A DNA stretch of 25,114 nt from an uncultured Gammaproteobacteria bacterium. Lineage in GTDB: Bacteria; Patescibacteriota; Patescibacteriia; UBA2591; PGYQ01. Location of the stretch: assembly GCA_964358215.1 (NCBI GenBank), contig CAYHOD010000001.1:866-25979 (forward strand). The letters run 5' to 3'. The notes below the pieces were generated by a model. It was not told where the DNA came from. It made no database searches and was given only the letters and a program-made list of their open reading frames with translations. Position numbers and translations under genes: made by a program. This document shows, piece by piece, positions 2,071 to 21,123 of the stretch; the stretch's first letter is position 1, and every line of letters starts with the position of its first letter.

Positions 2071-2601
2071 TTATAATTTAAAACTCTTATTATTTCTACA
2101 AGCTAAGAAGCTACTAGCTACAAGCTGATTAATTAATTTTTCGTCTTTTTCTTTATCTATTTTCTCTTTAAGTATTTTTTCAGTTGATAAAATTACCAAA
2201 TCAACAATTTGTTTTTTTGCGTCTTCTATTGCTTTTTCTTTTTCTTGTTTAATTTCTTGACGCGCTTTCAAAATTATTTCTTCGGCGTTTTGTTTTGCTT
2301 TAATATCCATTTCTATTTTTATTTTTTCTCCTATTTCTTTTGATTTTTCCAAAATTTGTTCCGCTTCTTTTCTTGCTTTTAAAATTTCTTTTATTTTTTC
2401 TTTTTCAATTTCTATTCTTTTTTCTTCTATTTCTTTCGCTTGTTTTAGACTTTCCTCTATTTTTTTTGTTCGATCGTTGAGCATGTTAATAACAGGATTG
2501 TATAAAAATTTTTTTAATATAAAAAGCAGTAAAAGAAAATTTACTATTTGAGCGATTAAAAGCAATGGTTCAATCCCTAAATTGTGAAGTAATTGAGACA
2601 T
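2071..2601 (-). CDS. atpF: F0F1 ATP synthase subunit b
   Basis: LGIEPLLLIAQIVNFLLLLFILKKFLYNPVINMLNDR followed by a long charged helix; directly downstream of atpE. Start at ATG 2601 (MSQLL). Confidence 0.93.
   Translation of the reverse strand: MSQLLHNLGIEPLLLIAQIVNFLLLLFILKKFLYNPVINMLNDRTKKIEESLKQAKEIEEKRIEIEKEKIKEILKARKEAEQILEKSKEIGEKIKIEMDIKAKQNAEEIILKARQEIKQEKEKAIEDAKKQIVDLVILSTEKILKEKIDKEKDEKLINQLVASSFLACRNNKSFKL
2087..2127. repeat. AGCTACA/AGCTAAA heptamer element inside the atpF 3' end
   Basis: ttattatttctacaagctaagaagctactagctacaagctg; matches the copies at 4251 and 10314 and the inverted copy at 6230. Confidence 0.85.
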
Positions 2602-3083: not shown

Positions 3084-3154
3084 CAAAATGGCAATGTAAA
3101 ATTCAAAATAAATTTAAATAAAAATCCAAAATCCCAAATAAATAAAAGTACCTT

Positions 3155-3250
3155 GTAACTCGTAATTAGTAATTAAATTAATAATTTGCCTTTGGCAAAT
3201 TATAGTTACGAGTTACGGATTACGGATTACTCTTAGTTAATTGTCATTTT
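3155..3250. repeat. Composite palindromic element, copy 1 (ATAATTTGCC-ttt-GGCAAATTAT core with inverted GTAAC/GTTAC heptamer arms)
   Basis: 3168-3250 vs 7715-7797 match at 81/83 nt; diverged copy at 6309-6410. Confidence 0.9.
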
Positions 3251-3389: not shown

Positions 3390-4121
3390 TTAATGTTCCT
3401 CATGAACTATAGTTGCCATTTTTAAAAATACAAGGGTTAACATTGCAAAAACCAAAGCTTGAACAAAACCAACAAATAATTCCAAGGCCATAAAGGGTAA
3501 AGGAACGATAAATGGAATTAAAAAAGCCATAACAACAAGTAAAACTTCGCCGGCAAAAACATTTCCAAATAATCGAAAAGAAAAAGAAATCAATTTTGCT
3601 ATTTCAGAAATTAATTCTAAAATTCCAACAAAAAATGATATTGGATTTTGAAAATTTATAAATTTTTTTGTATATTTAAAAAATCCGCAAGAAATAATTC
3701 CAAAAAATTGACACGCAATCACAGATATTAAAGCCAAAGCAATGGTCATATTTAAATCCGAATTAACCGAACGAAAAAGAGGAATAAATTTTTCTCCTTC
3801 TTTAAATCCAATCGTGCCAATTCCGGGAAATATTCCCAGCCAATTTGCCAATAAAACAAAAATAAAAATAGTTGCCACTAAAGGAAAAAATTTTTCTGCT
3901 TGTTTTTTATCATTAGTAATACTTTGAATTAAATTCAAAATATTTTCAATTAATATTTCTATTACATTTTGCAATCCTTTTGGTATAATTTGTATTTTTT
4001 TTGAAATTAAAAAAGCAATAATTATTAAAATAATCATTACCATCCAGGAGGTCAACAAAGTATTTGTGATTGGAAATTTTCCAATATGAAAAATTATTTC
4101 AGGAGATAAAGAAATATGCAT
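3390..4121 (-). CDS. atpB: F0F1 ATP synthase subunit a
   Basis: PKGLQNVIE, NWLGIFPG, FRSVNSDLNMT, SFSFRLFGNVFAGE (essential Arg), ELFVGFVQALVFAMLT. Confidence 0.96.
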   Translation of the reverse strand: MHISLSPEIIFHIGKFPITNTLLTSWMVMIILIIIAFLISKKIQIIPKGLQNVIEILIENILNLIQSITNDKKQAEKFFPLVATIFIFVLLANWLGIFPGIGTIGFKEGEKFIPLFRSVNSDLNMTIALALISVIACQFFGIISCGFFKYTKKFINFQNPISFFVGILELISEIAKLISFSFRLFGNVFAGEVLLVVMAFLIPFIVPLPFMALELFVGFVQALVFAMLTLVFLKMATIVHEEH

Positions 4122-4162
4122 AAAACATTATAACACAATAACATTGCAACATTATAACATTA
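4122..4162 (-). promoter_or_regulatory. Octamer array ending in an extended -10 box (TGTTATAAT) 5 nt before the atpB ATG
   Basis: Minus strand reads aatgttataatgttgcaatgttattgtgttataatgttttATG. Confidence 0.55.
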
Positions 4163-4250
4163 TTAATATAAAAATCAAAAAACAAAATTACAAAAATTCA
4201 AAGCTCAAATGTCAAAAGTCAAAACCATAACTGATTTTAATTTTTAATTT

Positions 4251-4294
4251 TTATTATTCCTACAAGCTAAAAAGCTACAAGCTAATTCCTGTTT
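4251..4294. repeat. Left arm of the inverted repeat bracketing PBP2 (contains the stop codon)
   Basis: 4260-4287 is the exact reverse complement of 6230-6257. Confidence 0.92.
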
Positions 4295-6219
4295 TCTACC
4301 CACCATTCTAAAACTTCTTTAGCAACCGGGACTGCGACAACAGATCCCCAACCACCCTCTTCAACCAAAATAGTTAAAACAATCTCGGGGTTTTTAGTTG
4401 GAGCGTAAAGAGTAAACCAAGAATGGGGATCTTTATTGGTAAGATGTTCAGCAGTTCCTGTTTTTCCCGCCACTTTTATTGGTAAATTGTTAAAAAGTTT
4501 AGTTTCGCCAGAATCTATCGCTTGCTCCATTCCTTTTTGAATTATTTTAATATTTTTTATTTTAATAAAATCTTTTTTGATTATTTTCGGAAAATTTTCC
4601 TGAACTAAATGTCCCTCAGAATTTACAATTTTATCTACCATTTGAGGCTGATAAATAATTCCATTGTTGGCAATTGCGGCTGTCCAAAAAGCTACTTGAA
4701 GAGGTGTTACCAAAAGATCTCCCTGGCCGATTGATAAATGATATGTGTTGCCTAAATACCATTGTTCATTTTTAATTTTTTCTTTCCACTCCGGAGTTGG
4801 AATAAATCCTTTTGCTTCATTTGGCAAATCAATTCCTGTTAAATTTTCTAAATTAAATTTTCTAAAATATTCAATAATTTTTTCTATCCCAAGTCCTTTA
4901 AAATTTTTATAACCGCCGCCTAAAGTATAAAAAAATATATCGGAAGATCTGGCAATGGCGCTAATAACATTCATTGGACCCAATCCGCTTCTTTGCCAGC
5001 CATGAAAATAATAAGTAATTTTAGGATTATATTGATTTGGAATGCCAATAACTCCATTATCTTGAATAATTGTATTTTGATTAATAATATTTTCTTCTAA
5101 TCCAGCTAAAGCCATAATTGGTTTGATTGTAGAACCAGGGGGATATTGCCCGGAAATAGCTCTATTTAAAAAAGGTTTATTGGGATTATTAACTAATTTT
5201 TGATAATTTTGTTCGGAAATACCGCGAGTAAAAAAATTATTATCAAAACTTGGAATGCTAACCATGGCTAAAATTTTCCCATTTCTAGGATCTAAAGCTA
5301 TTGCAATTGCTTTTTCTTTCTTATTTTTTTTTAAAACATTTATTAAAGCTTGATAAATTTTTTCTTGAAATTCTAAGTCTAAAGATAAAATAAGACTATG
5401 GCCTGTCTGGCTTGGTTTTTGAATTATAATTCTTTCTTCTTTACCTAAAGAATTAACTTCTATTTGTTTTTTTCCGGAAATTCCTCTGAGTATTTTTTCA
5501 TAAAAAAATTCAAGACCAGTCTTTCCAATATAATCATTTAATAAATATTCGGGATTTTGTTTTTTTTCAATTGGATCTATTTTGCCCAAATATCCCAAAA
5601 CATGAGAAGTTAATTGGCCTGTTAAATATTGCCGTTGCGTTTGTTCAATTAAATTTATTCCGGGCATATTTTGAATTTTTATTTTTAAAAGAATAGTTTG
5701 CTCTTGTGTAAGATTTTCTTGAATAAAAATTGGTTCAAATGAATAAAGTTTAGAATCACTTATTAATTTTCTAAAATAAATTGGATCTTGATTAATAATT
5801 TTAGAAACTTGAATAATAAGATCGTCTAATTGTCTTTTTTCTTTTGGCAAATCGGCCGGGATAAAAACCAAAGAAAAATTTAAAATATTTCTCGCCAATA
5901 TTTTTCCAAATCGATCAAGAATAACTCCCCTATTCGGAGAAATTGTTTGAATTCTAATTCTATTTTCTTCGGCTAATTTTTGATAAAAAACGCCTTTGAC
6001 AAATTGTAAAAAAAATATTTGTCCTCCTAAAATTATTAATCCTAAAAATAAAAATAAAAAAAACCAATTTATTTTTTTAGAATTTAAAATTAGTTTTAAT
6101 CGTTCTTTTATATCTTTTTGTAAAAATGGCGCTTCATTATCTTGTCGTTCTAACGCTTTTGAATAATTAAAAAGATTTTGAAATTTATTTTTTTTATAAA
6201 AAGAAAAAGGATCGCGCAT
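4282..6219 (-). CDS. mrdA: Penicillin-binding protein 2 (class B transpeptidase)
   Basis: N-terminal TM helix, RGVILDRFG dimerization domain, YPPGSTIKP (SxxK), SSDIFFY (SxD typical of PBP2), KTGTAE. Confidence 0.9.
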   Translation of the reverse strand: MRDPFSFYKKNKFQNLFNYSKALERQDNEAPFLQKDIKERLKLILNSKKINWFFLFLFLGLIILGGQIFFLQFVKGVFYQKLAEENRIRIQTISPNRGVILDRFGKILARNILNFSLVFIPADLPKEKRQLDDLIIQVSKIINQDPIYFRKLISDSKLYSFEPIFIQENLTQEQTILLKIKIQNMPGINLIEQTQRQYLTGQLTSHVLGYLGKIDPIEKKQNPEYLLNDYIGKTGLEFFYEKILRGISGKKQIEVNSLGKEERIIIQKPSQTGHSLILSLDLEFQEKIYQALINVLKKNKKEKAIAIALDPRNGKILAMVSIPSFDNNFFTRGISEQNYQKLVNNPNKPFLNRAISGQYPPGSTIKPIMALAGLEENIINQNTIIQDNGVIGIPNQYNPKITYYFHGWQRSGLGPMNVISAIARSSDIFFYTLGGGYKNFKGLGIEKIIEYFRKFNLENLTGIDLPNEAKGFIPTPEWKEKIKNEQWYLGNTYHLSIGQGDLLVTPLQVAFWTAAIANNGIIYQPQMVDKIVNSEGHLVQENFPKIIKKDFIKIKNIKIIQKGMEQAIDSGETKLFNNLPIKVAGKTGTAEHLTNKDPHSWFTLYAPTKNPEIVLTILVEEGGWGSVVAVPVAKEVLEWWVENRN

Positions 6220-6265
6220 AAACAGGTAAAATTAGCTTGTAGCTTTTTAGCTTGTAGAAATAATA
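6220..6265. repeat. Right arm of the inverted repeat bracketing PBP2 (abuts the ATG)
   Basis: aaacagg-taa-aattagcttgtagctttttagcttgtagaaataata. Confidence 0.92.
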
Positions 6266-6308
6266 CAAATGCAAAATAATAAAAATCCAAATGGTAAAAT
6301 AGATAAAA

Positions 6309-6410
6309 GTAACCAGTAACGTGTAACCAGTAATTAAAATTAATATTTGCCCTTGGCAAATTATACTCGTTACTCATTACTGGTTATTTTATTAATTGTT
6401 ATTTTGACAT
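6309..6410. repeat. Composite palindromic element, diverged copy 3
   Basis: tttgcc-ctt-ggcaaa core, gtaaccagtaac left arm, gttactcattactggtta right arm, ttaattgttatttt tail. Confidence 0.75.
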
Positions 6411-6483
6411 TTGATATTGGAATTTGAGATTTATTTTGCCTATTTGATATTTGGATTTTGGATTTTTATTTAATTTTGAATTT

Positions 6484-6517
6484 TGTTATAATGTTATAAT
6501 GTTATAATGTTATAATG
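6484..6517 (+). repeat. Perfect (TGTTATAA)4 octamer array
   Basis: Four exact copies 6484-6515, just past the stop of ORF 6523-7059. Confidence 0.95.
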
Positions 6518-6522
6518 ATTTT

Positions 6523-7059
6523 TCATTCTATACAACAATTAATCGCTTTTTTAACTAATTCGCCGAGTTTGCCCATAAATCCCTTTTTTTCTAGATCGTT
6601 TTTATTTAATGCATTTTCGTCTATTTTTTTAACATTTTCAATATTAATTAATTTCATATTAATGCCCCAAAAAAGAGAATAAAGATTGTGCGCTTTATTA
6701 AAAAAATCATACGCTTCATTTTTTTTATTCATTCCTAATTGTTTTGTTCCAACTTCCATTAAACGCATTGAAGCTGCGAGTAAATGTTTTGAAATGCACC
6801 AAATCTCGCCTTCTGGATCCTTGACAATTTTTCTTAAAAGTTCGCCGCGCATTGTTCGAACTTCTTGCAATAAATCAAAATATTCTAATTTGCCTGTTTT
6901 TTCAGCGGTAAAAAAAAAGTGCTCTTCAAGGCTAACTAAATTCATAATTGCGATTGATAAATCTTGATCTGATGATAAATCTATTTTGTCTTGCTTTTTC
7001 ATTTTATCTACTTTCTGAATAAATTCATCTAAATTTTTCATTGAATTTTCTTTTTCCAT
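6523..7059 (-). CDS. Hypothetical helical protein with a C-terminal CC pair
   Basis: 178-aa ORF co-directional with its neighbours; contains EEH, WCISKH and terminal NCCIE; starts 4 nt after the upstream gene. Confidence 0.8.
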   Translation of the reverse strand: MEKENSMKNLDEFIQKVDKMKKQDKIDLSSDQDLSIAIMNLVSLEEHFFFTAEKTGKLEYFDLLQEVRTMRGELLRKIVKDPEGEIWCISKHLLAASMRLMEVGTKQLGMNKKNEAYDFFNKAHNLYSLFWGINMKLINIENVKKIDENALNKNDLEKKGFMGKLGELVKKAINCCIE

Positions 7060-7063
7060 AATT

Positions 7064-7585
7064 CTATTTTGTTAAAAAATAAAAAACAATGCTCACAATA
7101 ATTAATAATAAAATTGGCATAATGACCTTTTGAAATGGAAAATAAGCGCGTCCATTATTTTTTTCTTTTAAATAAGAGTATAAATTAGCGCTCAATAAAA
7201 AAACGCAACTGCCAACAATAATTCCTAATAATAATTTATCTAAATAAAAATTACAAAAACACAATAAACTATTTTGTTTAGCGCCTAAAAGGCCTGTGAA
7301 ATACAGTGGAATTATCGTTAATAAGTAATATGCCAATGTTGTCGCAACAATTCTTGCTTTAAATTGAATATTTTTTTTATCAAACCAACTTTCTGTCCAA
7401 ATAATTAACGAAACTATTAGTCCTCCAATCCAAAGTCCTGAAATAATATCGTCAATTCCCAGCCACCTTGAAAGTCCAACTCCCGCGCTGACAGCAATTG
7501 TACAAACCGGACAAACAGCCAATGCTTGTTTGGCAAAAAACAAACTCGTTATTACAATTGAAAAAATGTAAATTTTATTTTTCAT
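7064..7585 (-). CDS. Hypothetical membrane protein with an N-terminal CPVC (CxxC) motif
   Basis: Signal-like N-terminus, ALAVCPVCT, and about four hydrophobic segments. Confidence 0.82.
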   Translation of the reverse strand: MKNKIYIFSIVITSLFFAKQALAVCPVCTIAVSAGVGLSRWLGIDDIISGLWIGGLIVSLIIWTESWFDKKNIQFKARIVATTLAYYLLTIIPLYFTGLLGAKQNSLLCFCNFYLDKLLLGIIVGSCVFLLSANLYSYLKEKNNGRAYFPFQKVIMPILLLIIVSIVFYFLTK

Positions 7586-7674: not shown

Positions 7675-7701
7675 ATTTTTCAAAGAAAAATTGCCTATCT
7701 G

Positions 7702-7797
7702 GTAACTTGTAATCAGTAATTAAATTAATAATTTGCCTTTGGCAAATTATAGTTACTAGTTACGGATTACGGATTACTTTTAGTTAATTGTCATTTT
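7702..7797. repeat. Composite palindromic element, copy 2 (contains the dus stop)
   Basis: 81/83 identical to 3168-3250. Confidence 0.9.
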
Positions 7798-10171: not shown

Positions 10172-10213
10172 AAAAAACATTTTAACATTTTAACATTTTA
10201 ACATGATAACAAT
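10172..10213 (-). promoter_or_regulatory. Octamer array (TGTTAAAA)n ending 7 nt before the malic enzyme ATG
   Basis: Minus strand reads tgttatcatgttaaaatgttaaaatgttaaaatgttttttATG. Confidence 0.55.
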
Positions 10214-10313
10214 TATACAAAATAAGTGTGCATGTATTTCATCTTTTGCGACAATGAAATTTTTAATCAAAAATAAAACCACAACTCAAATTCCATATCA
10301 CATATTCTTATTT

Positions 10314-10342
10314 TCCTAAAAGCTAAAAAGCTACGAGCTAAG
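10314..10342. repeat. AGCTACA element containing the aminopeptidase stop
   Basis: ttcctaaaagctaaaaagctacgagctaa, 27/29 identical to 4257-4285. Confidence 0.85.
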
Positions 10343-11758
10343 AAAAGTCTTATATCCTAAATAAGCGCAATAAATATCGGCTTTAGAAGCAATTTCTAAT
10401 GGCGCGTGTATATTGAATAAAGGTACGCCGGCGTCAACAACATCAATATTGCGATTAGCTAAATATTTAGCGATAGTTCCTCCGCCACCCTGATCAACCT
10501 TGCCAATTCCGCCAGAAAATTGACAAACAATATTTTTGTCTTTTTTGAAAATCATTCTTAATTTTTGCAAAAATTCAGCTGACGCTTCAGATGTGGAATA
10601 TTTACCGCCAGAACCAGTGTGTTTTTCTATTGCCAATCCAAATCCCATTCTGCAAGCGTTTCGCAAATCATAAACATCTTTATAATCTGGATCAACTGCT
10701 GTTGTTACATCTGCTGAAATTGCTTGACTAATGCCGTATGAATGATAAATTGCGTTTAAATCATTTTTATTTTGATTTAATTTTAAAATATCCAACATAA
10801 AACTTTCTAAAAATAATGACTGAATGCCTGTGTTGCCTTCTGATCCGATTTCTTCTCTGTCCACTAAGACACAAATTTGAGTTTGTTTAATAATTTTAGC
10901 GTCAAAAAAACTCATTAGCGCTAAATAAGAGCAAACCCTGTCGTCCTGTCCATAAGCCGAGATTAAACTTCTATCAAATCCTAAATCTCTGGCTTTTTCA
11001 CTTGGCACCGCTTGTATTTCCGCGCTAACTAAATCTACTTCTTTAATGCCATATTTATTATAAAGGTATTCTAATATTGCTAATTTAACTTTTTCTTTAA
11101 CTTTTGAATCATTAACTGGCAACGAGCCTAATAATAAATTTAAATCTTCTCCTTTAACTTCGCGAGATTCAATTTTACTGCCAGATCCAGATGGACGATC
11201 AAGCTGCGGCAATAAATCTGTAATCATAAAAATTGGCTCATCGTCTTTTTCTCCAATTTTAATATTTATTTTTTTGCCATTTTCTAAACAAACAATTCCG
11301 TGCAACGCTAAAGCAATGGTTGGCCATTGATATTTTTTAATTCCGCCATAATAATGAGTCTTGGCAAAAGCTAAATTTTCATCTTCATAAAGAGGCGTTG
11401 TTTTAAAATCTAAATGCGGCGAATCAATATGCGCCATAATTATTTTCATTCCCTGATTTAAGCCTTGATTGCCAATTTTAGCTAAAAATAAATTTTTATC
11501 GCGATTAACAGCATAAACTTTATCTCCTGTTTTTAATGATTTCATTTCTTTCATATTTTTAAAGCCTCTCATCTTGGCTAATTTTACACTAATTTCTATT
11601 GTTTCCCTTTCTGTTTTTGCTTCATTTAAAAATTTTTTATAGCCTTCACAAAAATCAAAAGCGTTTTTTTTAATTTTATCGTTCCAAACCTCCCAACAAC
11701 TTTTTTGTTCAAGTTTAAGTTCTTTTTCTAATTTTTGATAATTAATTTTTTTAGACAT
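10331..11758 (-). CDS. M18 family aminopeptidase
   Basis: AHIDSPHLD, HYYGGIKKYQW, AYGQDDRVC, DREEIGS, SADVT, GGGGTI, DAGVPLFNIHAPLE. Confidence 0.92.
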   Translation of the reverse strand: MSKKINYQKLEKELKLEQKSCWEVWNDKIKKNAFDFCEGYKKFLNEAKTERETIEISVKLAKMRGFKNMKEMKSLKTGDKVYAVNRDKNLFLAKIGNQGLNQGMKIIMAHIDSPHLDFKTTPLYEDENLAFAKTHYYGGIKKYQWPTIALALHGIVCLENGKKINIKIGEKDDEPIFMITDLLPQLDRPSGSGSKIESREVKGEDLNLLLGSLPVNDSKVKEKVKLAILEYLYNKYGIKEVDLVSAEIQAVPSEKARDLGFDRSLISAYGQDDRVCSYLALMSFFDAKIIKQTQICVLVDREEIGSEGNTGIQSLFLESFMLDILKLNQNKNDLNAIYHSYGISQAISADVTTAVDPDYKDVYDLRNACRMGFGLAIEKHTGSGGKYSTSEASAEFLQKLRMIFKKDKNIVCQFSGGIGKVDQGGGGTIAKYLANRNIDVVDAGVPLFNIHAPLEIASKADIYCAYLGYKTFLSS

Positions 11759-12863: not shown

Positions 12864-12918
12864 AAAAACATTACATTAAAAAATAAAAAAAGGAAAAATC
12901 AAAAATTAGTTTGTAGCT

Positions 12919-14388
12919 TTATGGCTTTACGGCTTTTTTAAAAATCATTAAACAAAGCAAAATATAAAAAATGCCTGTTGGATAAAATAAAAATGGTCCA
13001 AAAATATGAATAACAAAAAGACAAAATAAGCCAATTAAAATTCCCAAATAAAAATCTTGATTAATTGTTGAATAATAAACTGTTTTAACTCCTTGCCAAA
13101 ATAATATTCCTAAAAACCAAAAATAACTTAAAAAACCAAATAATCCTAGGTCTGTCCAATTCTCTAAATAACCCCAATCAATGTGAGGGGTTTTTATAAT
13201 TTTTTTTGTTGGATAATCATAAGCAACAATTTCAGAACCCATGCCAGAACCAATTATTGGATATTCTTTAATTTTTTTTAAAGCGGCGTCAAGCCGTTCA
13301 AGTCTGGACATGGCGCTGGCTTCTGTTTCTGGAGTAAAAATTGTTTCTATTCTGTCGTTTAAAAACAAAAAATTAGTTTGAATGTTTTTATGATTGCATA
13401 AATAAAAAATCAAAAAACTTTCTAATAAAAAAATTACAATTAAACTTATAGAAAAAATTATTTTTCTTTTTAACGGAATTTTTAAAATTAAACATAAAAA
13501 AATTAAACTAATTACAAATCCTAAAAGAAAATTTCGGGTAAAACTGATTGTTAAAACAACGCTTGATAAAATTCCCAAAAAAATAAGCCAAGGCAATTGA
13601 GAATTTAACCAATAATTTTTTTTTGTTAATTTATAAATATTAAAAAGTAAAATTGAAATTATGATAAGAAAAAAAACTAAAGTTAAAATATCCGACGACA
13701 TAACGACCCTAAAAAAATTATTATTCATTGCGGCTATTTTGCCAATAACATATTCTCTAAACCATTGATAATAAATTCCACCATGAACTGCCGAATGGCT
13801 GGCAAATAAATAAAGCGTTGTTATGGTTAAAGCGCTTGTGGCAATTATTGTTCCGGAAAATATTTGAAATATTTTTTTTATTAATTGTTTATTATTAACA
13901 ATTAAATCAAAAAATGGAAAAATTAATGAGAGATAGCTATAACAAATTAAATCCGCAAAAATAAAATTCCAAGCGTTTCCTCTTATTATTCCTATAATTC
14001 CAGCTAAAGCGATAAAAAATAACGCGAAAGTAAAAGGCTTGAAAAAAAATGATTTTGTAAAATTTTCTATTTGTGATTTTAAAAATTGATAATTTCGTAA
14101 TTTTTGAATGAGCCAAATAAACATAAAAACGGCAAACAAAACAAAACGAATTGATAGACTTTTAAACTCAAAAAGATGTCCGTCAATGCCGGCTAAAAAT
14201 TCAAAAATAAGAAATAAAAGACAATATTCTATTTTCCAAAAACTTAATCCAATTAAAACAATCACCATTAAAAAAAATCCAAAAGTTTCCACATTTGGAT
14301 TTAAAAAGCCAAGGAAAGAAAGGAGATAAATAAAAATACAAGCAAAAAAAGTATAAAGCGTTAATTTTCCAACTGAAATAATGTTCAT
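12919..14388 (-). CDS. O-antigen ligase/polymerase-like (Wzy_C) membrane protein
   Basis: Many TM segments, ISFTRN, SAMSRL, PIIGSGMG and PHIDWGYLE loop motifs; sits among glycosyltransferases. Confidence 0.8.
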   Translation of the reverse strand: MNIISVGKLTLYTFFACIFIYLLSFLGFLNPNVETFGFFLMVIVLIGLSFWKIEYCLLFLIFEFLAGIDGHLFEFKSLSIRFVLFAVFMFIWLIQKLRNYQFLKSQIENFTKSFFFKPFTFALFFIALAGIIGIIRGNAWNFIFADLICYSYLSLIFPFFDLIVNNKQLIKKIFQIFSGTIIATSALTITTLYLFASHSAVHGGIYYQWFREYVIGKIAAMNNNFFRVVMSSDILTLVFFLIIISILLFNIYKLTKKNYWLNSQLPWLIFLGILSSVVLTISFTRNFLLGFVISLIFLCLILKIPLKRKIIFSISLIVIFLLESFLIFYLCNHKNIQTNFLFLNDRIETIFTPETEASAMSRLERLDAALKKIKEYPIIGSGMGSEIVAYDYPTKKIIKTPHIDWGYLENWTDLGLFGFLSYFWFLGILFWQGVKTVYYSTINQDFYLGILIGLFCLFVIHIFGPFLFYPTGIFYILLCLMIFKKAVKP

Positions 14389-17553: not shown

Positions 17554-17601
17554 AAAACTAAATTAATAAAAAATCAATATTAAGATTCTCGCTTCGTTTA
17601 A

Positions 17602-17668
17602 AATAACAGAATGTTATTCTGTTACAATGTTATAATGTTAAAATGTTATAATGTTATAATGTTTTTTC
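17602..17668 (+). repeat. TGTTAnnn octamer array overlapping the serS stop
   Basis: Six to seven units from 17612; serS TAA at 17646-17648 lies inside. Confidence 0.9.
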
Positions 17669-18905
17669 CATTCATATAAGGCTGTAAGACTTCTGGAATT
17701 TTTATTGATCCATCTTTTTGTTGATAATTTTCTATAATTGCAATAATGATTCTACCAATAGCAAAAGCTGTTCCGTTTAAAGTATGAACAAAATTTAATT
17801 TGCCCTTTTTATTTCGATAACGAATATTTAATCGTCTGGCCTGAAAATCCGTGCAATTGCTTGTTGAAGTTATTTCTCTAAATTCATTTTGTCCTGGCAA
17901 CCAAGCCTCTAAATCAAATTTTTTAGCCGCTGAATCCCCTAAATCTCCGGTGCACATTTTTATCACCCGATAAGGTATTTTTAAAAGTTGGACTAATTTT
18001 TCTTCCATTGAAAGTAAAAATTGATGTTCTTTTTCTGAATCTTCTGGCTTGCAAAAACAAAACATTTCTAATTTATCAAATTGATGAACCCGCAAAATTC
18101 CTTTTGTGTCTTTGCCATACGATCCAGCTTCTCTGCGAAAACAAGATGAAAATCCTAAGTACCTTTTTGGTAAATCTTTTTCTTCAAAAATTTCATCACA
18201 ATGCATTGGGCCAATTGATTGCTCAGAGGTGCCGACTAAATATAATTCATCTTTTGGCAAATAATAAATTTCATCTTCTCCGCGAATTAAATATCCCATT
18301 GCCGCCATTGGTTGTCTTTTTATCATAACTGGTGGAATGATTGGAATAAAATTTTCTTTAATTAAATTAAAAAAAGTAAATTGAATTAAGGCAAATTCTA
18401 ATAGAACCGCTTCATTTTTTAAATAACCAAATCTACTGCCAGAAATTTTGGCCGCTCTTTTAGTGTCAATTAAATCTAATTTTTCGGCTAATTCAATATA
18501 GCTTTTTGATTCAAAATCAAATTTAGAAATTTTACATTCGTGTCTTAAAATTTCATTATCTTCTTCATTACGCCCTATTTTGACATCTGACAAAGGAAGA
18601 TTTGGAATTAAATACATTAATTTATTAAATTCTTTTTCTATTTCTTCTAATTCTTTTTCTAATTTCAATATTTCTTCTTTAATATTTTTCCCTTTTTCTA
18701 TTAATTCATCTTTTTTTGAAAAATCCATTTTGATTTTATCAGCAATCTCATTTTTTATTTTTCTTAAATCATCCACTTTTTGAATCAAATCTTTTCTTTT
18801 TTTATCCAATTCTAAAAGTCCGTCAATATCAACATTAACTCGTTTATTTTCACAAGCGCTTTTAATCAAATCTGAATTTTCACGAATAAATTTTATATCC
18901 AACAT
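17646..18905 (-). CDS. serS: Seryl-tRNA synthetase
   Basis: MLDIKFIREN, coiled-coil arm, LVGTSEQ, FRREAGSYGKDTKGILRVHQFDKLE, EITSTSNCTDFQARRL, HTLNGTA. Start at ATG 18905. Confidence 0.97.
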   Translation of the reverse strand: MLDIKFIRENSDLIKSACENKRVNVDIDGLLELDKKRKDLIQKVDDLRKIKNEIADKIKMDFSKKDELIEKGKNIKEEILKLEKELEEIEKEFNKLMYLIPNLPLSDVKIGRNEEDNEILRHECKISKFDFESKSYIELAEKLDLIDTKRAAKISGSRFGYLKNEAVLLEFALIQFTFFNLIKENFIPIIPPVMIKRQPMAAMGYLIRGEDEIYYLPKDELYLVGTSEQSIGPMHCDEIFEEKDLPKRYLGFSSCFRREAGSYGKDTKGILRVHQFDKLEMFCFCKPEDSEKEHQFLLSMEEKLVQLLKIPYRVIKMCTGDLGDSAAKKFDLEAWLPGQNEFREITSTSNCTDFQARRLNIRYRNKKGKLNFVHTLNGTAFAIGRIIIAIIENYQQKDGSIKIPEVLQPYMNGKNIITL

Positions 18906-18956
18906 AGAAAAACATTTTAACAAAATAACATTTTAACATTAAAACATTTTGTTATT
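18906..18956 (-). promoter_or_regulatory. Octamer array ending in TGTTAAAAT 8 nt before the serS ATG; inverted relative to the 17602 array
   Basis: Minus strand reads aataacaaaatgttttaatgttaaaatgttattttgttaaaatgtttttctATG. Confidence 0.55.
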
Positions 18957-20338: not shown

Positions 20339-20377
20339 GAATAATATTATGGGAGTTGAACTCCCATAATATTATTC
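20339..20377. repeat. REP palindrome downstream of the RAYT (19-bp perfect arms; contains its stop)
   Basis: gaataatattatgggagtt-g-aactcccataatattattc. Confidence 0.95.
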
Positions 20378-21091
20378 TAAAATTATTTTTTTGATTTTCT
20401 CTATATTTATATTTCTTCCATCTATTCCACTTTTTTCACGAAGCCATTTTTTAGTTTGCTGATAATATTCTTTTTCTCCTCCAAAAAAATCTAAAATAAA
20501 ATCTCTTGAAGTTAGCGATGGAAAATTTTTTTTGCCAATATAATCTAAATAAGAACTCCATCGATAATTTTCTAAAAATTCTATTTGTGTTTTCCAATCT
20601 ATGGGAGTTGAACTCCCATAGATTAAATCTATTGGGTTAGTATGGATATAAAATGGAAGAATGGAAAAATAAATTTCTTCATTAACAAAAATTGCTTTAA
20701 ATCTGCCTTGAAATAGTCCGCCAACCCTCTCATATTTTTTATTAAAATAATTTGTATACCCAGTTCCTAATTTTTGCATAAATTTTACAATTCCATTTTC
20801 TTTTTTTTGTTTTAAGAGTAAGTGGAAATGATTTGGCATAAGAGTAAAAGCCAAAATTTCAACTAATAATTTTCTAGGCTTTTTTTGTTTTTTTATACGT
20901 TCTAATTCTGTCTTTTTAAATTTATTATTAAAATAATAAGCGACATTATAAACAAAATCCTCATTATTAAATTCAAAAAGATCATGAATAAATCTAAGAT
21001 AATCTTTGTCGTCAAGAAATGTTTTTCTTTTTTCTACCCCTCTATTAAAAATATGATAAATTTCATTTTCTACAAATTGTGGTTTTTGCAT
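20372..21091 (-). mobile_element. REP-associated tyrosine transposase (RAYT, Y1 HUH superfamily) CDS
   Basis: YHIFNRG, LMPNHFHLLL (HUH), YFNKKY, LFQGRF, YIHTNP, YRWSSY; flanked by palindromes. Start taken at ATG 21091 (MQKP). Confidence 0.9.
20596..20624. repeat. REP palindrome inside the RAYT CDS (14-bp perfect arms)
   Basis: aatctatgggagtt-g-aactcccatagatt; translated as LIYGSSTPID. Confidence 0.95.
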
Positions 21092-21102
21092 ATTTTTAAA
21101 TC

Positions 21103-21123
21103 TATGGGAGTTCAACTCCCATA
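21103..21123. repeat. REP palindrome upstream of the RAYT (10-bp core arms, hybrid flanks)
   Basis: tatgggagtt-c-aactcccata. Confidence 0.93.

What the first reader, a model, noticed from the sequence alone, without database searches (positions are those of the whole stretch)
4251..6265. PBP2 gene exactly bracketed by a ~45-bp inverted repeat spanning its start and stop
Seen: 4260-4287 is the perfect reverse complement of 6230-6257 (28 nt), extending to 35/36 outward. After a 3-nt gap it also extends inward: CCTGTTT directly before the ATG is complementary to AAACAGG in the last codons (ENRN*). The mRNA leader could therefore pair with the gene's own 3' end. Inference: either a long-range stem that loops out the cistron (RNase III-type excision, as with rRNA precursor stems, or translational occlusion), or terminal repeats of a mobile or invertible gene cassette. 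I know no named feature that describes this for a housekeeping gene.
Basis: partly seen in the sequence, partly recalled or inferred. Interest (0 to 1): 0.75.

Follow-up and report, generated by a model that had tools for sequence, protein, structure and literature searches.

The report
PBP2 bracketed by gene-facing heptamer repeats
The inverted repeat around this cell-wall gene is real, but its arms are two copies of a short repeat that is scattered across this tiny groundwater bacterium's genome and always turns the same end toward the nearest gene, so the bracket probably comes from repeat spread, not from a switch built for this gene.

Summary
Observation confirmed. Window 4260-4287 is the perfect reverse complement of 6230-6257. 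The match extends to 53 nt at 89%, and inward by 7 nt after a 3-nt gap. It encloses mrdA (PBP2, 4282-6219, minus strand), and the 3' arm supplies the gene's TAG stop.

The arms are not private to PBP2. They belong to family "X": arrays of CTACAAG, CTAAAAAG and CTACCAG units, 134 arrays in this 834-kb Patescibacteria genome.

X is not randomly oriented. The same end faces a gene boundary in 47-49 cases against 1, at starts, at stops and at tRNA ends.

All five congeners lack X at PBP2 but keep the gene order. Of 15 X-flanked boundaries in congeners, 14 have no X at the matching boundary here. A mobile or invertible PBP2 cassette is therefore not supported.

- All four X pairs that enclose one or two genes (PBP2, atpD, an unknown gene, dnaJ-like plus rpsM) are identical subtypes. 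Pairs within one spacer never are.
- The two arms could form a -68 kcal/mol RNA duplex, and the genome encodes RNase III.

Best reading: a by-product of repeat spread and local inverted copying. A processing stem is possible but untested. The closest known kind is intergenic heptamer direct repeats (TAACTGA). I class this as a new variant.

The parts
4282..6219 (-). mrdA (PBP2), 645 aa; the stop TAG at 4284-4282 comes from the repeat
   Evidence: Pfam. NCBIfam TIGR03423 equivalog. The N-terminus MRDPFSFYKKNK is shared with congeners. The C-terminal tail is 2-6 residues shorter than in 5 congeners.
4260..4287 (-). 3' arm: X array (two 10-mers CTACAAGCTA 15 nt apart on the + strand, plus ATT). 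On the sense strand it reads TAG-rich.
6230..6257 (-). 5' arm: the same X array in sense orientation, ending 10 nt before the ATG
6220..6229 (-). spacer TTA + CCTGTTT directly before the ATG; the heptamer is complementary to 4288-4294
   Evidence: chance about 3%
4288..4294 (-). AAACAGG in the last codons (E-N-R), partner of the heptamer before the ATG
4235..4259 (.). outer extension of the 3' arm (T-rich 'tail' of the element)
   Evidence: I2
6258..6282 (.). outer extension of the 5' arm
   Evidence: I2
4122..4163 (-). octamer array Y' (TGTTATAA-type units) ending 5 nt before the atpB ATG; looks like an array of extended -10 boxes
   Evidence: The promoter scan finds TTGATT-16-TATAAT with TG at 4178-4151.
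6484..6515 (-). the same octamer array in mirror orientation (CATTATAA x4 on the sense strand), directly after the stop of the upstream gene
   Evidence: (D2, I1, I9)
4164..4234 (.). A/T-rich 7-mer 'word' region of the downstream spacer; mirrors 6391-6483
   Evidence: I3, I8; alignment
6391..6483 (.). matching word region of the upstream spacer
6300..6390 (-). hairpin module H (core TTTGCC..GGCAAA with heptamer arms), present only in the upstream spacer; terminator-like
   Evidence: I6; terminator-like 6361-6345; 34 H cores in the genome
2096..2120 (-). another X array, read through in its one open frame at the 3' end of atpF
10316..10340 (-). another X array overlapping the stop of the gene 10331-11758

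Best explanation
The two arms are copies of a dispersed repeat that has expanded in this lineage. I call it X: arrays of CTACAAG, CTAAAAAG and CTACCAG units that end in ...CAAGCTA-ATT.

In this SD-poor Patescibacteria genome, X lies flush against gene boundaries, always with the same end toward the gene. It reads stop-free just before start codons and TAG-rich over or just after stop codons. PBP2 has one array at each end, so it is bracketed by an inverted repeat by construction.

The two spacers around PBP2 are the same modular composite in mirror orientation: octamer array, A-rich words, X array.

Inferred, not shown: one spacer end was copied or converted in inverted orientation across the gene. 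The likely source is the 3' side, because its octamer array faces atpB like a promoter and its X array truncates the PBP2 tail.

The bracket is therefore a by-product of repeat spread, not a device evolved for PBP2, and the gene itself is not mobile.

Also inferred: if transcription starts upstream of X, the mRNA could close into a 5'-3' duplex of more than 28 bp. RNase III could cut such a duplex, or it could cover the start codon.
For: Family and polarity:
- 298 units in 134 arrays.
- The head faces a gene boundary within 30 nt in 47-49 cases, the tail in 1 (p about 1e-13). 28-31 are at stops and 18-19 at starts.
- Heads also abut tRNA-Met and tRNA-Gln 5' ends and a tRNA-Cys 3' end.
- A second family, the CATTATAA octamers, is polar in the same way, 28 to 3.

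Turnover:
- None of 5 congeners (PBP2 74-81% identical) has X at PBP2. The neighbours are conserved, and the upstream spacer is 65 nt in two of them against 303 nt here.
- 14 of 15 X-flanked boundaries in congeners lack X at the orthologous boundary here.
- The 25-mer (up to 2 mismatches) has 60 copies here, 13 in one congener, 1 in another and 0 in three. Eleven of 400 other genomes of the class hold a few copies each.

Truncation: the PBP2 tail is the shortest of six, and it is the only one ending in TAG.

Local relatedness:
- Outside X, the downstream spacer's best partner among 29 X-bearing spacers is the upstream PBP2 spacer (score 47; that pair ranks 25 of 406).
- Nearby boundaries of every class share elements 2.4-3.8 times more often than random pairs.
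Against: - X pairs that enclose one or two genes are matched in 4 of 4 cases. The start-by-stop null is 0.085, and distance-matched pairs of other geometry are matched in 3 of 16 (Fisher about 0.007). Pure by-product does not predict this unless local inverted copying is common. Selection for pairing predicts it directly.
- No transposase, target duplication or other mechanism for spread was found. None of the five RAYT-like genes is flanked by X.
- The reason for the gene-facing polarity is not explained.
- No transcript-end data could be obtained.
Confidence: 0.58

Rival explanations
1. Functional long-range RNA stem. X before a gene and its complement after it pair in a polycistronic precursor. 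RNase III cuts the duplex, or the duplex covers the start codon. This would punctuate transcripts or limit translation of PBP2, atpD, rpsM and other genes.
For: - The arm duplex is -68 kcal/mol, and neither arm has a strong local partner (self-folds -9 and -6).
- RNase III is present.
- Arms around one or two genes are identical subtypes in 4 of 4 cases, while pairs within one spacer never are (0 of 11).
- No good sigma-70 promoter lies between hairpin H and the ATG, so read-through from upstream is plausible.
- SD-like motifs precede only 5.4% of genes, so the start region itself is the likely initiation signal.
Against: - About 80% of X arrays have no matched partner.
- The arms are absent at PBP2 in all five congeners, and X positions are not shared between species.
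- X also faces tRNA ends.
- The only RNA contig covers the gene interior, 4641-4893.
- Same-gene pairing of boundary elements in general is barely above other neighbour classes (3.8x against 2.4-3.7x).
Confidence: 0.2
2. Pure coincidence. Two independent insertions of a common element happened to land at both ends of PBP2, with no copying between them and no function.
For: - Given the polarity rule, about 0.8 genes are expected to carry X at both ends (21 starts x 30 stops / 754 genes).
- The 25-mer of the PBP2 arms is the commonest subtype.
- The inner 7-nt match has about a 3% chance.
Against: - Three single-gene brackets plus one two-gene bracket are seen, all with matched subtypes (p about 6e-4 to 5e-5 under independence).
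- At PBP2 the mirror similarity continues about 130 nt beyond X.
Confidence: 0.15
3. PBP2 is a mobile or invertible cassette, with the repeats as its recombination sites.
For: - Inverted repeats flank the gene exactly.
- A 28-bp perfect match is about the minimum for homologous recombination (general knowledge, not tested here).
- Both spacers would give the gene a similar upstream region in either orientation.
Against: - Gene order and orientation are conserved in congeners without the arms.
- PBP2 composition matches its neighbours.
- The two adjacent ORFs have no Pfam or NCBIfam recombinase hit.
- No strand-changing joint appears in three DNA runs. These are contigs only, so this is weak.
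Confidence: 0.03

Closest known systems
Intergenic heptamer direct repeats (TAACTGA arrays of Beggiatoaceae, Cyanobacteria, Bacteroidetes; MacGregor 2015, PMC4679880)
   Same: - Tandem 7-nt units in 2-6 or more copies.
- Mostly intergenic, ending a few nt before start codons that lack an SD.
- One orientation gives stops in all frames and so closes ORFs. The other is translatable and is found inside ORFs.
- Positions are not shared between strains, and the phylogenetic spread is patchy.
- No mechanism of spread is known.
   Different: - Different unit (CTACAAG and its variants).
- Here the stop-free orientation faces start codons and the stop-rich one follows stops. The paper reports the reverse.
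- The same-end-to-gene rule holds at both gene ends and at tRNAs.
- Matched inverted pairs around single housekeeping genes are not reported there.
REP/BIME elements and REPtrons (RAYT genes flanked by inverted REPs; PMC3733652, PMC3479197, seen only as search hits)
   Same: - Short, high-copy extragenic repeats, often close to stop codons.
- A gene bracketed by inverted copies is the REPtron layout.
- The genome has five Y1 (RAYT-like) genes, each with its own flanking hairpin.
- Each unit of the X complement contains GTAG.
   Different: - X is a direct-repeat array, not a palindrome.
- No RAYT gene is flanked by X.
- The bracketed genes are housekeeping genes, not transposases.
5'-3' UTR pairing of icaR mRNA in Staphylococcus aureus (PMC3868564, title and abstract) and the RNase III processing stems of rRNA precursors (general knowledge)
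   Same: Sequence at the 5' end of a transcript is complementary to sequence beyond its 3' end.
   Different: Those are locus-specific, experimentally shown interactions. Here the arms are a mobile multi-copy element that congeners lack, and no RNA evidence exists.
Modular intergenic mosaics such as pneumococcal BOX elements, and cyanobacterial STRR heptamer repeats (from memory; the STRR literature search returned only papers that mention the term)
   Same: Spacers are built from a small set of short modules, some tandemly amplified, in variable order and in both orientations.
   Different: Different sequences and hosts. Gene-facing polarity is not a described property, to my knowledge.

Membership tests
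Intergenic heptamer direct-repeat arrays (TAACTGA type) | Tandem direct repeats of a 7-nt unit, many sets per genome | tested here: met
   134 arrays, of which 83 have two or more 10-mer hits (CTACAAGCTA, up to 1 mismatch); pure CTACAAG runs and mixed 7/8-nt units
Intergenic heptamer direct-repeat arrays (TAACTGA type) | Mostly intergenic, ending a few nt before start codons without an SD | tested here: met
   18-21 arrays end 3-13 nt before an ATG. SD-like motifs precede 5.4% of genes. More arrays (28-31) sit at stops.
Intergenic heptamer direct-repeat arrays (TAACTGA type) | One orientation closes ORFs, the other is translated inside ORFs | tested here: met
   TAG falls in the frames of the complement. 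Arrays deep inside genes are almost all in sense orientation.
Intergenic heptamer direct-repeat arrays (TAACTGA type) | Unit sequence TAACTGA | tested here: not met
   The unit is CTACAAG or a variant.
MITE | Terminal inverted repeats at both ends of one inserted element | tested here: not met
   Most spacers carry one X only. Where two occur in one spacer they are different subtypes (0 of 11 tail-to-tail neighbour pairs matched, four of them within one spacer). Spacer termini are not enriched beyond other neighbour classes.
MITE | Target-site duplication | tested here: inconclusive
   Flanks beyond the ATT end show no direct repeat in the two-ended examples inspected. No systematic test was made.
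REP / REPtron | Imperfect palindrome of 20-40 nt | tested here: not met
   X is a direct repeat. Only 4-bp AGCT self-pairs are possible (weak self-folds).
REP / REPtron | Copies flank a RAYT gene | tested here: not met
   Five Y1_Tnp genes were found, each with other hairpins and none with X.
5'-3' UTR pairing / RNase III processing stem | Complementary sequences before the start and after the stop | tested here: met
   28 nt perfect, -68 kcal/mol
5'-3' UTR pairing / RNase III processing stem | Both arms on one transcript, with cleavage or regulation | not testable with these tools
   Only one RNA contig, inside the gene.
5'-3' UTR pairing / RNase III processing stem | Conserved in relatives | tested here: not met
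   Absent from five congeners
Invertible or mobile gene cassette | The gene occurs in other contexts or orientations | tested here: not met
   Same neighbours and orientation in congeners. No strand-change joints, but contigs only.
Invertible or mobile gene cassette | Adjacent site-specific recombinase | tested here: not met
   Neighbouring ORFs 6523-7059 and 7064-7585 have no family hit. The nearest Y1 gene is about 14 kb away with its own REPs.

The most novel reading that the evidence does not exclude
In this SD-less, largely leaderless ultra-small bacterium, mobile heptamer arrays are installed as matched inverted pairs around single essential genes (PBP2, atpD, rpsM). They form long-range duplexes that RNase III cuts, so that mRNAs are released from polycistronic precursors the way rRNAs are. 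This would be a transposable transcript-punctuation system.
Probability: 0.12. Interest if true: 0.8.

Novelty: new variant of a known kind. Interest (0 to 1): 0.5.

Why it matters
If the bracket is only a by-product, the case still shows how completely short repeats have rebuilt the spacers of a reduced CPR genome. They supply stop codons, trim protein tails and sit where ribosomes must start.

It also documents an orientation rule of 47-49 to 1 that no known repeat mechanism explains.

If matched pairs do act as RNA stems, this would be a mobile way to set mRNA ends in an organism without Shine-Dalgarno signals. A single stranded metatranscriptome could test that.

On the practical side, these arms break short-k assemblies exactly at gene boundaries. 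That matters for MAG quality in this group.

Tried and rejected
- MITE reading (spacer as the unit with X as terminal repeats). This was my first idea. I rejected it because same-spacer X pairs are never matched and spacer termini are not enriched.
- RAYT link. Five Y1 genes were found, but none is flanked by X. Only 8 of 83 X arrays have hairpin H within 200 nt.
- X as a sigma-70 promoter for leaderless mRNA. The hexamer positions do not fit, and the scan gives no site between H and the ATG (and reading).
- Metagenome scan with the first 21 nt of the gene. The single hit was an unrelated high-GC contig, so no strain variants were obtained.
- Public runs. Only Logan contigs were available.
  - The contigs break at the arms (pieces 3935-4287, 4263-6256, 6231-6325), so they cannot show the segment's orientation.
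  - The 'goes back' joint 6269>4184 and the 'skips' joints have 22-36-nt sides, some at higher depth. I read them as other loci built from the same modules.
  - The RNA run holds one 260-nt contig inside the gene and says nothing about transcript ends.
- Inner 7-nt extension as proof of copying. It has only about a 3% chance level, so I kept it as a hint.
- Literature search for repeats in Patescibacteria spacers found nothing relevant.
- No structure or complex prediction was run, because none bears on the question.

Full report
**1.

On the plus strand, 4260-4287 is the exact reverse complement of 6230-6257. The repeat finder extends the arms to 53 nt at 89% (4235-4287 / 6230-6282).

All genes in the window are on the minus strand. 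On that strand the 5' arm ends 10 nt before the ATG of ORF 4282-6219. The 3' arm begins inside the last codons and contains the TAG stop.

The ORF is mrdA (PBP2): Pfam PBP_dimer + Transpeptidase and NCBIfam TIGR03423 at 573 bits against a cut-off of 455.

After a 3-nt gap, CCTGTTT directly before the ATG is complementary to AAACAGG in codons E-N-R.

Weaker mirror symmetry covers both whole spacers. Examples are 4122-4188 vs 6455-6521 at 78%, and pairs I3, I8 and I9.

Read on the sense strand:
- Upstream spacer: CATTATAA x4, then A-rich 7-mer words, then a hairpin module H, then T-rich words, then the X array, then ATG.
- Downstream spacer: X complement, then T/G-rich words, then TGTTATAA-type units, then the atpB ATG.

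**2. The arms are family members**

The genome (834 kb, 139 contigs, 28.8% GC) belongs to a Kuenenbacteria-like Patescibacteria lineage.

The 10-mer CTACAAGCTA occurs 187 times, and the 25-mer of the arms occurs 21 times perfectly. Allowing one mismatch gives 298 units in 134 arrays.

The arrays are built from CTACAAG, CTAAAAAG, CTAAGAAG and CTACCAG units. They have a T-rich tail on one side and ...CAAGCTA-ATT on the other.

Several longer composites recur letter for letter. The copies therefore share a source and did not arise by independent slippage.

**3. Orientation is not random**

The ATT end (the 'head') lies within 30 nt of a gene boundary in 47-49 arrays. The other end does so in 1 (binomial p about 1e-13). 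Of these, 28-31 are at stops and 18-19 at starts.
- Before starts, the array reads stop-free and is followed by ATTTT-ATG.
- At stops, the complement reads TAG in two frames, or in all frames for pure heptamers, and often supplies the stop.
- Heads also abut tRNA-Met and tRNA-Gln 5' ends and a tRNA-Cys 3' end.

The octamer family (CATTATAA)n is polar in the same sense, 28 to 3. Any gene that carries X at both ends is therefore bracketed by an inverted repeat by construction.

**4. Is the bracket more than the rule predicts?**

I compared the 72-nt windows at all gene boundaries, each read into its gene.
- Same-gene pairs scoring 16 or more: 15 of 653, against 3.9 expected (p = 1.5e-5). PBP2 is the top gene.
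- Other neighbour classes are also enriched 2.4-3.7 times. These include same spacer, left-left and right-right.
- Much of the signal is therefore regional sharing of repeats.

Restricting to X arrays gives a sharper result.
- The four head-to-head neighbours that enclose one or two genes have longest common substrings of 28, 32, 26 and 26 nt.
- The null probability of 26 nt or more is 0.085 for start-by-stop pairs.
- Tail-to-tail pairs are never matched (0 of 11; the four inside one spacer score 11-17 nt). Tandem neighbours are matched in 3 of 11.
- At comparable distances this is 4 of 4 against 3 of 16 (Fisher about 0.007, my calculation).
- The enclosed genes are PBP2, atpD, an unknown gene, and dnaJ-like plus rpsM.
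- Only the PBP2 bracket extends beyond the array itself.
- The inner 7-nt match alone occurs in about 3% of random family pairs.

**5. History**

All five congeners (PBP2 74-81% identical) keep the upstream 'CCIE' gene before PBP2. The one whose sequence reaches far enough also keeps atpB after it. None has X there.

In two congeners the upstream spacer is about 65 nt, against 303 nt here.

The PBP2 tail here (…EWWVENRN) is 2-6 residues shorter than in the congeners. It is the only one that ends in TAG.

Of 15 X-flanked boundaries in two congeners, 14 have no X at the orthologous boundary here.

Copy numbers of the 25-mer (up to 2 mismatches): 60 here, 13 in one congener, 1 in another, 0 in three. 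Eleven of 400 other genomes across the class hold a few copies each, and the reversed-pattern control gives none.

This pattern indicates rapid turnover or mobility with a conserved sequence. It does not fit a locus-specific regulatory site, and it excludes PBP2 itself being mobile.

**6. What could not be settled**

RNA side:
- The arms could form a -68 kcal/mol duplex. The two spacers co-fold at -166 kcal/mol against -89 alone.
- RNase III is encoded.
- No sigma-70-like promoter lies between hairpin H and the ATG.
- Only 5.4% of genes have an SD-like motif.
- A stem that forms after the 3' arm is transcribed is therefore conceivable.

Public data gave no test. Logan contigs of three DNA runs break exactly at the arms. 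They show no strand-changing joint. The one RNA contig lies inside the gene.

**7. Mechanism of spread**

I found none.
- X is not a palindrome.
- It is not next to any of the five RAYT-like genes, each of which has its own REP hairpin.
- It is only sometimes near hairpin H (8 of 83).
- It does not behave as a two-ended MITE.

The closest described kind is the intergenic TAACTGA heptamer arrays (PMC4679880). They share the tandem heptamers, the position next to SD-less start codons, the ORF-closing and translatable orientations, the strain-specific positions and the patchy distribution. That paper likewise found no evident mechanism for their spread.

**8. Verdict**

The repeat is real and is the strongest of its kind in the genome. 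It is best read as two copies of a polar, mobile boundary repeat, probably related by local inverted copying.

A role as an RNA processing or occlusion stem is not excluded, and the matched-pair result hints at it. A mobile or invertible PBP2 cassette is not supported.

I class this as a new variant of a known kind. Earlier notes of this scan on the same window had already flagged the serS bracket, the octamer -10 arrays and the REPtron. My genome-wide tests agree with those notes and put the PBP2 case in the same frame.

Noticed in passing
window 17554-18956: serS (17646-18923) is bracketed by inverted octamer arrays of the TGTTAnAA family. It has the third-highest start/stop complementarity in the genome (score 28). 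The geometry matches PBP2, but the family differs.
   Followed up: partly
window 4122-4163; 10181-10215; 18924-18956: Arrays of TGTTATAA / TGTTAAAA units end 5-6 nt before start codons, which places a TATAAT-like hexamer where a leaderless promoter would sit. The mirror orientation occurs right after stop codons, where it would point antisense into the gene.
   Followed up: partly
window 2096-2120 (atpF 3' end): The atpF ORF runs through an X array in its only open frame and stops 25 nt later, so the repeat encodes the protein's last residues.
   Followed up: no
G000:C80:1092-1212, C39:421-496, C70:2108-2166 and about 6 more: X arrays lie deep inside long ORFs, almost always in the stop-free orientation. 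There, CTACAAG x3 would read LQATSYK-type repeats.
   Followed up: no
window 6300-6390, 7700-7775, about 3110-3190; 34 copies genome-wide: Hairpin module H has the core TTTGCC..GGCAAA, and its arms are themselves heptamer arrays (TAACNAG-type on one side, the complement on the other). It looks like a terminator.
   Followed up: partly
G000:C18:11385-11864, C20:3032-3667, C1:21237-21980 (window 20372-21115), C49:2700-3005, C31:7661-8176: There are five Y1 (RAYT-like) transposase genes in an 834-kb genome, each with a different flanking hairpin. Next to the C31 gene the hairpin's left arm is tandemly amplified in 10-nt units.
   Followed up: partly
window 10316-10340 and 12900-12915: A single X unit lies after the stop of gene 12919-14388 and points toward the next start. 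An X complement lies at the stop of gene 10331-11758. Together they enclose two genes, which may be a two-gene bracket.
   Followed up: no
G000:C19:3173-3541 and C77:1391-1783: Two '23S rRNA intervening sequence protein' (bAvd-like) genes are among the genes with the strongest start/stop complementarity (scores 26 and 22).
   Followed up: no
whole genome: Only 36 of 669 genes (5.4%) have GGAG, GAGG or AGGA within -20..-4. Start codons are typically preceded by TTTT.
   Followed up: partly
window 4182-4275 and 6156-6531: Contig depth in three groundwater runs rises 4-12 fold over the spacers relative to the gene. The spacer modules are therefore multi-copy in the community, and short-k contigs end at the arms.
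   Followed up: no
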